Of a stretch of 64,000 bases of DNA, positions 9,641 through 63,674 are shown piece by piece. The stretch's first letter is position 1. The number at the start of each line of letters is the position of its first letter. The translations under genes were made by a program, and so were the position numbers. The stretch lies in assembly GCF_009914755.1 (NCBI RefSeq), contig NC_060936.1; one strand, given 5' to 3'. Under the pieces are notes generated by a model. It saw nothing but the letters and a program-made list of their open reading frames with translations. It searched no databases and was not told the DNA's origin. This DNA comes from the human T2T-CHM13v2.0 reference genome, Homo sapiens.

Positions 9641-9698
9641 ACAACTAATCCTTTCTTATGGCTGCATAGTATACCATGGTGTATATGTGCCACATTTT

Positions 9699-10085
9699 TT
9701 TTCTTTTTCTTTTTTAAATTTTATTATTATTACACTTTAAGTTTTAGGGTACATGTGCACAGTGTGCAGGTTTGTTACATATGTATACATGTTCCATGTT
9801 GGTGTGCTGCACCCATTAACTCGTCATTTAACATTAGGTATATCTCCTAATGCTATCCCTCCCCTCTCCCCCCACCCCACAACAGTCCCCAGAGTGTGAT
9901 GTTCCCCTTCCTGTGTCCATGTGTTCTCATTGTTCAATTTCCACCTATGAGTGAGAACATGTGGTGTTTGGTTTTTTGTCCTTGCGATAGTTTGCTGAGA
10001 ATGATGGTTTCCAGTTTCATCCATGTCCCTACAAAGGACATGAACTCATCATTTTTTATGGCTGCATAGTATTCCATGGTGTATA
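9699..10085 (-). mobile_element. 5'-truncated L1PA4-like element nested in the host L1
   Basis: Second 3'UTR with its own tail and younger diagnostics (ttttagggtac, tttaacattagg, tcatcatttttt); flanked by GTGCCACATTTT at 9687-9698 and 10086-10097. Confidence 0.8.
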
Positions 10086-10849
10086 GTGCCACATTTTCTT
10101 TATCCAGTCTATCATTGATGGACATTTGGGTTGGTTCCAAGTCTTTGCTATCGTGAATAGTGCCACAATAAACATATGTGTGCTTGTGTCTTTATAGTAG
10201 CATGATTTCTAATCCTTTGGGCATATACTCAGTAATGGGATCCCTGGGTCAAATGGTATTTCCAGTTCTAGATCATTGAGGAATCACCACACTGTCTTCC
10301 ACAATGGTTGAACTAGTTTACACACCAACCAGCAGTGTAAAAGTGTTCCTATGTCTCCACATCCTCTCCAGCACCTGTTGTTTCCTGACTTTTTAATGAT
10401 TGCCATTCTAACATTCTAACTGGTGTGAGATGGTATCTCATTGTGGTTTTGATTTGCATTTCTCTGATGGCCAGTGATGATGAGCATTTTTTCATTTGTC
10501 TGTTGAATGCATAAATGTCTTCTTTTGAAAAGTGTCTGTTCATATCCTTTGCCCACTTTTTGATGGGGTTGTTTGATTTTTTTCTTGTAAATTTGTTTAA
10601 GTTCTTTGTAGATTCTGGATATTAGCCTTTTGTCAGATGGGTAGATGGTGAAAATGTTCTCCCATTCTGTAGATTGCCTATTCACTCTGATGGTAGTTTC
10701 TTTTGCTGTGCAGAAGCTCTTTAGTTTAATTAGATCCCATTTGTCAATTTTGGCTTTTGTTGCCATTGCTTTTGGTGTCTTAGTCATGAAGTCCTTGCCC
10801 ATGCCCATGTCCTGAATGGTATTGCCTAGGTTTTCTTCTAGGGTTTTTA

Positions 10850-10990
<141 letters not shown>

Positions 10991-11307
10991 TCATTTCTTG
11001 TTTTTGTCAGGTGTGTCAAAGATCAGATGGTTGTAGATGTGTGGTGTTATTTCTGAAGCCTCTGTTCTGTTCCATTGGTCTATATCTCTGTTTTGGTACC
11101 AGTACCATGCTGTTTTGGTTACTGTAGCCTTGTAGTATAGTTTGAAGTCAGGTAGCAGGATGCCTCCAGCTTTGTTCTTTTTGCTAAGGATTGTCTTGGC
11201 AATGCAGGCTCTTTTTTGGTTTTGTATGAACTTTAAAGAAGTTTTTTCCAATTCTGTGAAGAAAGTCATTGGTAGCTTGATGGGGATGGCATTGAATCTA
11301 TAAATTA

Positions 11308-12117
<810 letters not shown>

Positions 12118-12120
12118 TCA

Positions 12121-12272
<152 letters not shown>

Positions 12273-12582
12273 TCATTGGAATAGTTTCAGAAGGAATGGT
12301 AGCAGCTCCTCCTTGCACCTCTGGTAGAATTCGGCTGTGAATCCGTCTGGTCCTGGACTTTTTTTGGTTAGTAGGCTATTAATTATTGCCTCAATTTCAG
12401 GGCCTGTTATTGGTCTACTCAGGGATTCAACTTCTTCCTGGTTTAGTCTTGAGAGGGTGTATGTGTCCAGGAATTTATCCATTTGTTCTAGATTTTCTAG
12501 TTTATTTGTGTAGAGGTGTTTATAGTATTCTTTGATGGTAGTTTGCATTTCTGTGGGATAGGTGGTGATATCCTCTTTATCA

Positions 12583-12903
<321 letters not shown>

Positions 12904-15900
12904 TCAGAGATTCTGGTATGTTGTGTCTTTGTTCTCATTGGTTACAAAGAACATCTTTATTTCTGCCTTCATTTTGTTATTTACCCAGTAGTCACTCAGG
13001 AGCAGGTTGTTCAGTTTCCATGTAGTTGTGTGGTTTTGAGTGAGTTTCTTAATCCTGAGTTTTAATTTGATTGCACTGTGGTCTGAGAGAGAGTTTGTTG
13101 TAATTTCTGTTCTTTTACATTTGCTGAGGAGAGCTTTACTTCCAACTATGTGGTCAATTTTGGAATAAGTGTGATGTGGTGCTGAGAAGAATCTATATTC
13201 TGTTGATTTGGGGTGGAGAGTTCTGGAGATGTCTATTAGGTCTGCTTGGTGTAGAGCTGAGTTCAAGTCCTGGATATCCTTTTCAACCTTCTGTCTTGTT
13301 GATCTGTCTAATATTGACAGTGGAGTGTTAAATTCTCCCATTATTATTGTGTGGGAGTCTAAGTCTCTTTGTAGGTCTCTAAGGACTTGCTTTATGAATC
13401 TGGATGCTCCTATATTGGGTGCATATATATTTAGGATAGTTAGCTCTTCTTGTTGAATTGATCCCTTTACCATTTTGATCTTTGTTGGTTTAAAGTCTGT
13501 TTTATCAGAGACTAGGATTGCAACCCCTGCTTTTTTTTTGTTTTCCATTTGCTTGGTAAATCTTCCTCCATCTCTTTCTTTTGAGCCTATGTGTGTCTCT
13601 GCATGTGAGATGGGTCTCCTGAATACAGCACACTGATGGGTCGTGACTCTTTATCCAGTTTGTCACTCTGTGTCTTTTAATTGGAGTATTTAGCCCATTC
13701 ACATTTAAGGTTAATATTGTTATGTGTGAATTTGATCCTGTCATTATGATGTTAGCTGGTTATTTTGCTGGTTAGTTGATGCAGTTTCTTCCTAACATCA
13801 ATGGTCTTTACAATTTGGCGTGTTTTTGCCGTGGCTGGTAGTGGTTGTTCCTTTCCATGTTTAGTGCTTCCTTCAGGAGCTCTTGTAAGGCAGGACTGCT
13901 GGTGACAAAATCTCCCAGCACTTGCTTGTCAGTAAAGGATTTTATTTCTCCTTCACTTATGAAGCTTAGTTTGGCTGGATATGAAATTCTGGGTTGAAAA
14001 TTCTTTAAGAATGTTGAATATTGGCCCACACTCTCTTCTGGCTTGTAGAGTTTCTGCCAAAAGATCTGTTAGTCTGTTAGGAACAGTTAGTCTGTTAGTC
14101 TATTAGGAATAGTTTCTGCCAAAGGAACTGATGTTAGGAAAGGGAAACGCCCCGACCCCTTGCGCTTCCCGGATGAGGTGACACTCCGCCCTGCTTCGGC
14201 TCACCCTCCGTGGGCTGCATCCACTGTCCAACCAGTCTCAGTGAGATGAGCCACCTACCTCAGTTGGAAATGGAGAAATCACCCATCTTCTGTGTTGATC
14301 ACGCTGGGAGCTGCAGACTGGAGCTGTTCCTGTTCAACCCTCTTGGAACCAGAATCTATTTTTTTTTTAATTAAGCCACTTAATATATTTCACAGGTGTT
14401 CTCTTTGTCATGTATCTCTTCATCTAAATTTATAAATGTCTTCCTCTAGAGAATATCCAATCAGTATCATCAGGGTTAGGGACCTCCCTCATCGCAATGA
14501 GTATATGTTTTAAAGATCCCAGATGTAAGTCAGATTACTCCTTCTTTGTGACACAGGAGTACTAAAGGTGTTTTCTACTATAACCTTGAAAGTTAGTTTT
14601 TTTTTTGTTGTTGTTGTAACAGAGCCATAGTAGTACAGTGGCACAGCAAGAGTGCTAGACACTCAAACTAAAACTTATCAGAACAAAACCAACTTCCATT
14701 ATGGCTTTGCTTTCTTAAGTAGTGGTTTTCAGCTTTTGTATTTGTCCAATGATTGTCATCTTATCTTCACCCAATAATTCACAGTAGAAACCTTCTAAGT
14801 ATTACTGGGAAAAGGGGCAGGGGACCCCAATGGCCTGTCTCATAGAAGGCCATCCATCTCTCATTCCAAGGCTCTCCAGTCCAGCTCTGAGAGATTATGG
14901 TTTGCACTTAGAGAAGATTACAGCTGCTCCTTGAGAAAACACAGTCAGCCCCCTTGTCAAAAGTACCAGTGCCTTTGAATACTGATATGGAAGAACACTT
15001 AATTAAGCACAAGCATCCTGGCTGTGGGTCTTGCATTGTTATGCAGTTGGATAACTTTGACAAGTATTCCAAAGAGGGTGAGGGATGCAGGGATGAGAAA
15101 TTCATTCTGTTGTTCTTTTGGATAAACATTGACTCCTGGCCTCGGAAGTTGACATTCACTAATCCTTGACCGTTTGGGGAACACGAAGATTGCCAGGGAC
15201 AGCAGCAAGATACACAGCTGTAGAGAAGATAAGTGAATCTGCTACTCTCACTCAAGCAATATTACTCAGAGTAATAATAGTAACAATGTATTAGGAGATT
15301 ATAGCTTATGAATAAGTAAAATGAATGTGATAAGATACTAGATAAAAGATTTAGGAATATATATATATATATTCCTATATATGTAAGGTACATGTGATTC
15401 CTATGAAGTGGTGTAGTGTTATGAGGATGGAATTAGATTCATTATAAGTGGATATTGCAAACTCTAGGGAAACCACTGAACATTATTTTAAAAGAAGTAC
15501 AGTTTATATGGTAAGAGGATAGACAATATAATAATATAATATATTTAATCAAAGCCATGGAGGTCAGAAAAGGGAGCAAAAAAACAAAGAAACAAAGAAC
15601 AACTGCAATAAACAGAAATAGTTACAAATATGGTATATATTAATATAAATATATAAATAATTATCTTAAATGTAAGTAGTATAAATGCAACAATTAAAAG
15701 ACATAGAATGTCGAAGTGTATAAAAAGCAAGACTCAACTATATGTTGTCTACAAGAAACACACTTTAAATATAAAACCATGGCTAGGTTAAAAATAAAGA
15801 AAAAAAAACTATATATCATGCTCACATTATTCAACAGAAAGCTGGAATAGCTATACTGGCATGCCTCAGAGATATTGTGGATTGAGTTCCAGACCACCAA

Positions 15901-44370: not shown

Positions 44371-45559
44371 AATATATTCAAATGCCTGGCACATCCTAGC
44401 TACCCCAAGAAATCTTCCCATAATCGCTGTGCACGTCGTTCTTTGTCCTTGCCTACCTTGTGGTCCAGGCATGTGGTAAGATCCGTCTGGCTGCTTTTCA
44501 TGGTCCTGCTCTTTTTCTCCCTTTAATTTATATTTTCTTCACATTTTTTCTATATACAGTACTGCCACACTTCCTATGGTTTCTTCTTCTGATTTTCTCA
44601 TTGTATACACATTATCTTTCTTGTTCATTCAGCAAATATTTATTGTGTGCCTACTACGTGGCAGGTATTGTACTAATTTTTAGACTTTCAAAGAACAATA
44701 AAACAGAGTTTAAGCTTACAGCTATTCTGTTCTGTTTTCTCTCACATGCCAATGTGGTTAAAAAATGTATTTATGATTTTCTGTGACAAATTCATGAAGG
44801 TTTTTATACAACATGCCCAGGTCCAGGGTGAAAGGTGTGTGATGGTTACTGGTCAAGAAAACAAGTAGATTAAGCATGCTCAACAACAAACCATGGAAAG
44901 AAAGGTCAAGAGAACTGCAGCATGAATTACTGTACAAATGGGAGTTCAGTGCTCTGCTACTAAAAAGATAGTAGGACAGGGGTCTTTTTAGAGCATTACA
45001 GAAGTTGTGCTAGGAGTAAAGGAGAGTACACACATTACAAATGTGTAGAACACAACATATTTTAGTCACAGATAAATGTATTTTTAATAAATCTATTTTC
45101 CCAAAGAGTTGTAAAATATGTTATATATTTTATATTTATAAAATTATTGAATTATCAAAAACATTTAAAAACTCTTCTTTAAAGAGTTATCCCATTATAT
45201 TCTTTCCTTTGGCAAAGATATTTTCAGACAATTTTTTAATGCAAAAATTTCCAATTCTCAATAGCTGTCATAATGCCAAGTGAAGAAGTTATTCATCCAT
45301 GAAAGCTTTCTTTGTTAAAATACAGATCGCATTATTTATACAATCTGAATGTTTAATGAATGCATACAAATTCAAATGTCAATGTAGATAAACTAAAATT
45401 ACATTTCTATCAAGGAAGAAAGGCTTTTCAACAAAGAATAAGACTTTTGTTTTAAGGTGAAAAAGTTAAAGGATGAATTCTAAATTGTTTTCTAAGAATT
45501 AAATGACAGAGAAGTGTACGTAAAGGCTTCCTTAAAGGTTATCTTAAAAGCAAATATGA

Positions 45560-45953
45560 CAGTTCTGCACTTAATATTTATACCTACTTTATTTTTTGTT
45601 TTGCTTTGTTTTATTTTTTTATTATACTTTTAGTCCTAGGGTATATGTGCACAACGTGCAGCTTTGTTACATATGAATACATGTGCCGTGTTGGTTTGCT
45701 GCACCCATTAAGCAGCTATGCCAAGCACATCGCCTGTGGGTTAGCCCTGCTCTTCAAGGAACAGTACCTCTGCTGCTGTACACTGCCACTTCAATAAAAG
45801 TTACTAACACCACCAAAAAAAAAAAAAAAAAGAAAAAAGAAGAAAAAGAAATTGCCTTCCTTTTACAGTTAAATAACTCTCTCAGCCTGCTTCCTGCCCG
45901 TAGGAAGTTGGGGGCTTGGAAGGTTTTCTTCATTAAAAAAAAAAAAAAAAAAA
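45560..45953 (+). mobile_element. Composite TPRT insertion: inverted L1 3' end, MER41 LTR fragment, poly(A), 83-nt unique sequence, poly(A)
   Basis: Perfect TSD AAAAGCAAATATGA at 45546-45559 and 45954-45967, at a TT/AAAA site. Confidence 0.88.
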
Positions 45954-46741
45954 AAAAGCAAATATGAAACTATACCTTTAAACAATGAATAATGGTGTAG
46001 CCATTTCATCTTATAGTTTCTAGGATGAATTAAAATAACATATTTTATCCTATATTATGAAGAAAAGTGGTAAAAATCTTTCTCAAATTACTATAAGGAT
46101 AATAAATATAATTTAAGAATTTTGTCTATGCATCCAGACTAAAATGGCATAGAGACATAAGCCCTTATCAATAAAAAAAACTCTTGAGCAGAATTGCCAT
46201 TCATAGAAGGATTTGACCATAACAAAAGATTCTGTGAAGCTATTTTTTCAACTATATATAAAACTTTTCTCACATAAAATCATACACCCAGATTATTTTT
46301 TATTTCAAGATATTTATTTATTTACAGGTCAGATGAGGGGCTATAACAAACAGAAAATTATTTGATTCTCTCAGTTCCTTCCTGTCACAGCAGTGCAAGG
46401 AAGGACTTTTCGTAGAATGATTTTCAAAAGATTTCCCAGATAAAATAAAGTCACAAGGAAGGAGATTTAGATTCATTGCCTACATAGGCGCTTGCCAGCA
46501 AGGTTATTCTATTTGCAGACAAAGCAAATTTGTATAAACGATGTATATTATTGAGAACCTAACTGATGAAACAGTTTTCCCCCTCAGGCCTTTTCTAAAT
46601 GCTCCCCTTTCACAAAAATCTTTATGACTAAGATATTTTCTGTGAAATAGTCGACAAAGATTTTGGCAGTATTAAAACTGAGATTTTTTTTCCCTTTGTG
46701 TAAGGCATATAGAGAGAACAAGTTTGAGGGACAAGGAGTCA

Positions 46742-60220: not shown

Positions 60221-63674
<3,454 letters not shown>

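What the first reader, a model, noticed from the sequence alone, without database searches (positions are those of the whole stretch)
45546..45967. ~400-bp cassette that may record three L1 generations: serial 3' transduction via a MER41 poly(A) signal
Seen: a perfect 14-bp TSD at a canonical TT/AAAA site encloses four parts. (a) 45560-45711 reads, inverted, as an L1PA5/6-like 3' end, its A tail and ~28 nt of flank. (b) 45712-45814 is a MER41-like LTR piece ending 16 nt after its AATAAA, where an A tract replaces the rest of the LTR. (c) 83 nt of unrelated sequence. (d) A second A run. Inference: a grandparent L1 read through to a downstream MER41 poly(A) site, its offspring read through again into a new flank, and that RNA was inserted here by twin priming. 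Repeat annotation would show only unrelated fragments.
Basis: partly seen in the sequence, partly recalled or inferred. Interest (0 to 1): 0.75.

Follow-up and report, generated by a model that had tools for sequence, protein, structure and literature searches.

The report
Retrocopy of a promoterless L1's read-through
This 400-base insert on chromosome 12 is a partly inverted copy of a stretch next to the PTEN gene on chromosome 10 that holds a truncated jumping element and the DNA that element had itself dragged along, so it likely records three generations of copying, the last one likely made from a host read-through RNA because the truncated parent has no promoter of its own.

Summary
All of parts a-c match one place, G000:C10:88738773-88739132 (minus strand), 9.2 kb from the PTEN start codon on the divergent side. 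That place holds a 1.36-kb L1 plus a 130-nt LTR piece and A tail, inside its own 17-bp TSD. Part c is that TSD's 3' copy plus downstream flank, which fixes the direction chr10 to chr12. Part a is inverted only at chr12, so twin priming is supported.

Three corrections. The '28-nt flank' is the same LTR as part b, so the grandparent L1 likely sat inside the LTR. The LTR does not match the MER41 copy tested. The parent L1 is 5'-truncated flush against its TSD, so it never had a promoter.

The last step was therefore likely trans-mobilisation of an RNA started elsewhere, most likely KLLN-side read-through. That RNA ends without any poly(A) signal, at the most T-rich spot of the region. No grandparent was found in CHM13. 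Multigeneration transductions are known; a promoterless intermediate with a signal-less end is a variant. No function is implied.

The parts
45546..45559 (+). 5' copy of the 14-bp target-site duplication, at a TT/AAAA L1 endonuclease site
   Evidence: the left flank 45250-45559 has 1 match in the genome, itself
45560..45587 (-). Inverted 5' part of the transduced LTR piece (holds the LTR's TATA-like TATAAA); source G000:C10:88738989-88739015
   Evidence: homologous to the LTR family copies
45588..45617 (-). Inverted, decayed A tail of the L1 (inherited from the grandparent insertion)
45618..45711 (-). Inverted last 94 nt of an old primate L1 3' UTR; 8 substitutions in 94 against the chr10 parent
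45711..45814 (+). Direct 3' part of the same LTR piece, AATAAA at 45793-45798, cut 16 nt later; base 45711 is shared by both arms (1-nt microhomology) and 6 source nt are missing at the inversion
45815..45845 (+). A tail of the parent insertion (second generation), also present at chr10
45846..45862 (+). Copy of the 3' TSD of the chr10 parent insertion (16 of 17 identical)
45863..45934 (+). Downstream flank of the chr10 parent, ending at source base G000:C10:88738773 in a T-rich tract with no poly(A) signal
45935..45953 (+). Untemplated A tail of this insertion (third generation); the source has only 3 A in the next 20 nt
45954..45967 (+). 3' copy of the target-site duplication

Best explanation
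The cassette is a partly inverted copy of a chromosome 10 stretch beside PTEN that holds a 5'-truncated L1, an LTR piece and their downstream flank, and it was likely inserted by L1 proteins acting in trans on a host read-through RNA, most likely one from the KLLN side of the PTEN/KLLN promoter. Step 1 (inferred): a full-length L1 inserted into a roughly 490-bp ERV-type LTR at the family's TT/AAAA site just 5' of its TATA box. Step 2 (product shown, source inferred): it read through its own poly(A) signal, was cut 16 nt after the LTR's AATAAA, and inserted 5'-truncated at chr10 as 1.36 kb of L1 plus 130 nt of LTR plus tail in a 17-bp TSD. Step 3 (template and structure shown, promoter inferred): an RNA started upstream passed both signals and ended about 75 nt beyond the parent's TSD in a T-rich tract with no signal. 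It gained an A tail, possibly after T-tract termination, and was inserted at chr12 by target-primed reverse transcription with twin priming. The two arms are about 150 nt (inverted) and 225 nt (direct), with 6 nt lost between them. Age is roughly 12-25 million years (inferred from 17 substitutions in 310 aligned nt and a recalled neutral rate). No function is proposed.
For: One chr10 locus is the best non-self hit for parts a, b and c (87%, 92%, 99%), with a on the opposite strand. The parent TSD occurs at C10:88740392-376 and 88738864-848. Its 5' copy abuts mid-ORF2 sequence, while 4 of 9 related L1s that matched the junction motif continue further 5' (the other 5 did not match the motif). 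The two flanks of the parent are collinear in a chr18 paralog (left flank score 87 against a shuffle maximum of 55 in 300), so chr10 is the original insertion site. 16 of 26 LTR relatives carry TT/AAAA at the point where the L1 tail joins, and one more copy has an Alu inserted at that site. PTEN exon 1 is identified by an exact 26-residue PDB match. A 178-codon ORF on the minus strand (KLLN, name recalled; shared promoter per PMC6033966) ends 7,081 nt upstream of the RNA end in the same sense. No other L1 of this kind was detected between the parent and the promoter. No signal hexamer lies within 45 nt of the RNA end, and that end is among 3 of 2,603 positions with 10 or more T in 14 nt (window chosen after seeing the site). 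T-tract termination of Pol II is described in PMC11610936.
Against: No transcript data were available, so the promoter is not shown. An RNA from KLLN must pass 7 AATAAA and 5 ATTAAA and T runs of 13, 19 and 33. PMC11610936 finds T-tract termination mostly within about 3 kb of a start site, and this end is about 8 kb from it. The chr12 copy has a C inside the T6 run, so the run may have been shorter when it was copied. A full-length same-sense L1 lies 42.9 kb upstream inside PTEN. Parts a+b differ from chr10 at 16 of 224 nt but part c at only 1 of 86 (Fisher p 0.048; 0.19 without CpG), which is unexplained. The grandparent was not found.
Confidence: 0.6

Rival explanations
1. Same three-step genealogy, but the last RNA began at a nearer cryptic start: inside the truncated L1 or in the old LTR-like repeat at C10:88741.0-88741.7 kb, 2.3-2.9 kb upstream of the RNA end.
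For: The copy needs only about 360 nt of template. A near start avoids most upstream poly(A) signals and long T runs and fits the short range of T-tract termination (PMC11610936).
Against: No CpG island or other promoter sign there (1-6 CpG per 500 nt, against 23-59 at the PTEN/KLLN island). No promoter test was run.
Confidence: 0.15
2. The last step was a long orphan 3' transduction driven by a full-length L1 upstream (the one in the PTEN intron, or one since lost from the human lineage), reading through the truncated L1.
For: Such a case is published over 2.4 kb (L1 9q31.3-1, PMC13009371 section 10). A 6,184-nt same-sense L1 of similar divergence (91% to the parent) lies upstream.
Against: It is 42,933 nt away, beyond the PTEN/KLLN promoter and many poly(A) signals. 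No other such L1 was detected in the 9.6 kb directly upstream.
Confidence: 0.13
3. One reading: the chr10 parent was a full-length active L1 that transduced its own flank and lost its 5' end later.
For: It is the usual route for multigeneration transductions (PMC13009371), and later truncation has been offered for non-human primate sources (PMC4862182).
Against: The 17-bp TSD abuts the truncation point with no 5' UTR remnant. A later deletion would have to end exactly at the TSD edge.
Confidence: 0.04
4. Two templates: the A tail, or parts a+b, came from a different RNA than part c, by template switching or RNA ligation during insertion.
For: No poly(A) signal at the end of c. Uneven divergence, 16 of 224 against 1 of 86, with about 11 changes assigned to chr12 and 4-5 to chr10.
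Against: b, the parent's tail, the parent's TSD and c are contiguous in both loci. The imbalance is not significant without CpG sites (p 0.19). No second template was found.
Confidence: 0.06
5. DNA-level copying (templated repair insertion) from chr10, with no RNA step.
For: The copied stretch is unspliced and has no poly(A) signal at its end.
Against: Endonuclease-type site, perfect 14-bp TSD, an untemplated tail of at least 19 A, and a 5' inversion are the hallmarks of L1 insertion listed in PMC12016303.
Confidence: 0.02

Closest known systems
Multigenerational L1 3' transduction cascade (PMC13009371, section 10)
   Same: Two stacked transduced tags, each ending in an A tail, tracing source, intermediate and final insertion.
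   Different: Here the intermediate is 5'-truncated from the start, the event is old and germline, and the final copy is inverted inside the first tag.
Orphan transduction through a downstream truncated L1 (9q31.3-1) and 'proxy elements' (PMC13009371)
   Same: A truncated L1 in the reference appears to be the source of new copies.
   Different: No full-length L1 lies within the 9.6 kb upstream. It is not a proxy, because the copy carries the truncated element's own TSD and downstream flank. The end has no poly(A) signal.
Processed pseudogenes / gene retrocopies mobilised in trans, with twin-priming inversion (PMC4862182; PMC12016303: 3 of 23 inverted)
   Same: L1 machinery acting on an RNA it did not encode; TSD, tail, endonuclease site, 5' inversion.
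   Different: The template holds no exon or splice junction; it is intergenic repeat-derived sequence about 4.3 kb past the AATAAA at C10:88743091 (probably the main KLLN signal, recalled).
T-tract (DNA-directed) termination of RNA polymerase II (PMC11610936)
   Same: The RNA end falls in a T6-CA-T4 tract with no signal, downstream of a short gene.
   Different: About 8 kb from the presumed start rather than within about 3 kb; those RNAs are exosome substrates, and their retrotransposition is not described in the passages seen.

Membership tests
L1 target-primed insertion | Target-site duplication of 5-25 bp | tested here: met
   14 of 14 bp
L1 target-primed insertion | Endonuclease site TT/AAAA | tested here: met
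   45544-45549
L1 target-primed insertion | Untemplated 3' A tail | tested here: met
   23 A at chr12, 4 in the TSD; 3 A in the next 20 source nt
L1 target-primed insertion | Empty site in outgroups | not testable with these tools
   No primate genomes are held; the flank has no paralog
Twin-priming 5' inversion | 5' part inverted against the source, breakpoints adjacent with a small loss or overlap | tested here: met
   6 nt lost, 1-nt junction microhomology
Twin-priming 5' inversion | Complementarity of the target's 3' end to the internal priming site | tested here: inconclusive
   0 matches at the TSD's 3' end; 5 contiguous matches only if 9 TSD bases are skipped
Classical (cis) L1 3' transduction, step 2 (grandparent to chr10) | L1 3' end, tail, flank ending 10-30 nt after a poly(A) signal, new tail, one TSD | tested here: met
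Classical (cis) L1 3' transduction, step 2 (grandparent to chr10) | Full-length source L1 directly upstream of the transduced sequence | tested here: inconclusive
   0 of 30 inspected LTR relatives have an L1 end upstream; only the best 40 of 448 candidates were scored
Classical (cis) L1 3' transduction, step 3 (chr10 to chr12) | Source is a full-length L1 with its own promoter | tested here: not met
   1.36-kb element, TSD flush with the truncation
Classical (cis) L1 3' transduction, step 3 (chr10 to chr12) | Poly(A) signal 10-30 nt before the new tail | tested here: not met
   None of 12 hexamers within 45 nt; the nearest of 19 is 92 nt upstream. 79% of endpoints have one in PMC13009371, so absence is not disqualifying alone
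Trans-mobilised host RNA (retrocopy) | Template lies in a transcript from a non-L1 promoter | not testable with these tools
   Only position and sense relative to the PTEN/KLLN promoter were shown
MER41 LTR | Sequence similarity to a documented MER41 copy (upstream of AIM2, tandem GAS sites) | tested here: not met
   0 blastn hits for 8 queries; local scores 88-97 against shuffle maxima 86-93, within-family 587. One MER41 copy only; other MER41 subfamilies not tested
MER66 (MER4-group) LTR | Match to the family model | not testable with these tools
   No repeat library. The name is recalled from the ends and the 450-500 bp length seen
L1PA5-L1PA7 subfamily | Diagnostic 3' UTR positions | not testable with these tools
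   The closest genomic L1s are 91-93% identical over 1.33 kb; the subfamily label is recalled

The most novel reading that the evidence does not exclude
The insert is a germline fossil of a Pol II read-through RNA from the PTEN/KLLN promoter that ended at a T tract without a poly(A) signal, was tailed as a decay intermediate and was captured by L1. Promoterless truncated L1s would then act as secondary transduction sources through host transcription, which could explain why most non-human primate transduction sources show only truncated L1s (PMC4862182), and such pairs can be screened for genome-wide.
Probability: 0.3. Interest if true: 0.62.

Novelty: new variant of a known kind. Interest (0 to 1): 0.42.

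Why it matters
Transduction pipelines often admit only full-length L1s as sources (PMC9311842), yet most primate source loci show only truncated ones (PMC4862182). This case can be read unambiguously. The source's TSD shows that it was truncated from the start, and the copy carries that TSD plus flank. It therefore shows that a promoterless L1 can seed a further tagged insertion. It may also be a dated record of antisense read-through from the PTEN promoter region in the ape germline, and of a signal-less RNA end. It is a single, probably neutral fossil, so its value is as a worked example and as a template for a genome-wide screen.

Tried and rejected
Grandparent search: DNA searches with the LTR piece gave only chr10 and chr12 above 87% identity. 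A 33-nt pattern with up to 3 mismatches found chr10 only. A 34-nt pattern with up to 2 mismatches found 8 places: chr10, chr12 and 6 ordinary LTR copies, all 6 inspected with no L1 upstream. This does not prove absence: only 40 of 448 candidates were scored, and about 8% divergence could defeat the patterns.

Segmental duplicate as the true source: not found; the flank beyond part c has only 77-78% paralogs. Paralog of the chr12 empty site: none. MER41 label: rejected for the one copy tested. Internal priming on a templated A stretch: rejected. Pol III origin: considered unlikely, since the RNA would cross several T4 runs and no Pol III promoter lies in the last 1.2 kb; not tested further. APOBEC signature for the excess changes at chr12: no consistent context by eye. 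Shared derived L1 changes, to time the gap between steps 2 and 3: only 2 weakly informative sites in 94 nt. Pfam gave 0 families for the 178-aa ORF.

Literature: 10 searches. The two that paired KLLN with read-through or L1 terms listed nothing on this locus pair among the 20 of 25 and 10 of 3,640 papers shown. Szak 2003, Khan 2006, Ostertag and Kazazian 2001, Chuong 2016 and the paper sought as the T2T repeat survey (Hoyt 2022, id recalled) were not held. No supplements were read, so a T2T transduction table could already list this pair.

Full report
OBSERVATION. A 14-bp direct repeat at 45546-45559 and 45954-45967 follows TT, giving a TT/AAAA site. The chance of the 10 bases outside the A run is 2.3e-6, and 5 of 63,500 window 14-mers recur at this spacing. 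The left flank is single-copy.

THE PARENT. Separate searches with parts a, b and c each returned the same best non-self place on contig C10: 88738989-88739132 (87%, plus strand), 88738879-88738981 (92%, minus) and 88738773-88738851 (99%, minus). On the minus strand that locus reads: TSD, 1.36 kb of L1 3' end, A tail, 130 nt of LTR, A tail, TSD, flank. The TSD is 17 bp, at 88740392-376 and 88738864-848. The chr12 cassette holds the last 94 nt of this L1, its tail, the LTR piece, the second tail, the 3' TSD copy and about 72 nt of flank. The flanks on both sides of the chr10 element are collinear in a chr18 paralog of an old repeat (left flank score 87, shuffle maximum 55 in 300). So chr10 is the original site and the direction is chr10 to chr12. 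No segmental duplicate was found.

THE INVERSION. Part a is inverted only at chr12. Six source bases are missing between the arms, and one base is shared at the junction. This matches the twin-priming description in PMC12016303 (passages). Primer complementarity at the TSD's 3' end was not found; five bases match only if nine are skipped.

THE GRANDPARENT. The '28-nt flank' is the 5' part of the same LTR as part b: 15 other genomic copies span the join. Of 26 distinct relatives, 16 carry TT/AAAA where the L1 tail joins, and one further copy has an Alu at that site. The grandparent L1 therefore likely inserted into the LTR just 5' of its TATA box and used the LTR's AATAAA, with the cut 16 nt later. 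It was not found: 0 of 30 inspected relatives have an L1 end upstream, and patterns found no further close copy. The searches score only the best candidates (40 of 448), so this is not proof of loss. The LTR is 450-500 bp long. It does not match the MER41 copy with tandem GAS sites upstream of AIM2 (located; described in PMC7663688, passage): no blastn hit for 8 queries, and scores of 88-97 against shuffle maxima of 86-93, versus 587 within the family. From recall it resembles MER66, a MER4-group family (group per PMC5753468, passages); this name is untested.

THE KEY CORRECTION. The parent's 5' TSD abuts mid-ORF2 sequence. Four of nine related L1s matched the junction motif, and all four continue 5' of it. 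The parent was truncated at insertion and had no L1 promoter, so the third step cannot be a cis transduction. The locus lies on the divergent side of PTEN, whose exon 1 was identified by an exact PDB match. A 178-codon ORF in the same sense as the L1 ends 7,081 nt before the RNA end. I recall it as KLLN; PMC6033966 (passages) says KLLN possibly shares PTEN's promoter, and PMC9114392 (passages) places it over the PTEN enhancer. No similar L1 was detected in the 9.6 kb upstream. A full-length same-sense L1 lies 42.9 kb upstream inside PTEN. Host read-through is the best guess, but it is inferred. Such an RNA must pass 7 AATAAA, 5 ATTAAA and T runs up to 33.

THE RNA END. None of 12 signal hexamers lies within 45 nt of the end, and the next 20 source bases hold only 3 A. 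The end sits in a T6-CA-T4 tract, among 3 of 2,603 positions with 10 or more T in 14 nt; the window was chosen after seeing the site, and the chr12 copy has a C inside the T6. PMC11610936 (passages) describes Pol II termination at T tracts, used when poly(A)-site cleavage is absent, mostly within about 3 kb of the start. PMC13009371 (section 9 whole) finds a signal at 274 of 349 transduction ends, so signal-less ends are not rare.

DIVERGENCE. There are 17 substitutions in 310 aligned nt (5.5%; A tails left out). Parts a+b have 16 of 224 and part c 1 of 86, plus 2 gaps in each (Fisher p 0.048; 0.19 without CpG). Relatives assign about 11 changes to chr12 and 4-5 to chr10 (the LTR counts used wrong offsets and were redone). 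The imbalance is unexplained. The parent L1's closest relatives are 91-93% identical. With a recalled neutral rate the copy is about 12-25 million years old, so it should be shared by the great apes (untested).

COMPARISON. Multigeneration cascades, orphan transduction through a truncated L1 over 2.4 kb, and proxy elements are in PMC13009371 (section 10 whole). PMC4862182 (passages) found only small truncated L1s at most non-human primate source loci and read them as unrelated or truncated later. PMC9311842 (passages) admits only full-length sources. PMC2768975 (passages) reports L1 transcripts from upstream promoters. Passages of PMC4859970, PMC13192797, 10.1101/2024.08.27.596794 and 10.1101/2024.12.14.628481 added nothing specific. 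Ten searches showed no paper on this locus pair in the rows listed, but several key papers were not held and no supplements were read.

VERDICT. A real three-generation record. Step 2 works like, and meets most tests of, a classical 3' transduction. Step 3 fails two of its defining features and works like a trans-mobilised retrocopy. New variant of a known kind, probably neutral; interest 0.42.

Noticed in passing
G000:C10:88781706-88788212, minus strand (L067), inside PTEN: A full-length 6,184-nt old L1 with broken ORFs whose 17-bp TSD encloses an Alu and its A tail directly in front of the L1 5' end: an Alu-L1 chimera or a 5' transduction.
   Followed up: partly
G000:C10:88741072-88741596 (L037): A self-inverted repeat, 79% identical over a 552-nt alignment, in an old LTR-like repeat (MaLR-like by recall) 0.7-1.2 kb upstream of the parent L1.
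   Followed up: no
window 61078-63672: An L1 with an internal inversion relative to the window L1 at 9645-13822, lying inside the annotated span of CYCSP30.
   Followed up: no
L075 (G000:C4:6608790-6609110) and L018: An Alu inserted at the same TT/AAAA site of this LTR family (clear in L075, likely in L018), suggesting a recurrent endonuclease target just 5' of the LTR TATA box.
   Followed up: partly
window 45560-45814 against L002: About 11 changes fall on the chr12 copy against 4-5 on chr10 in parts a+b, while part c has 1 in 86; unexplained.
   Followed up: partly
window 45546-45552 and L002:1491-1499: The start of the TSD (AAAAGCA) equals the reverse complement of the source around the inversion breakpoint, as if the internal primer paired through the 5' half of the TSD.
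   Followed up: partly
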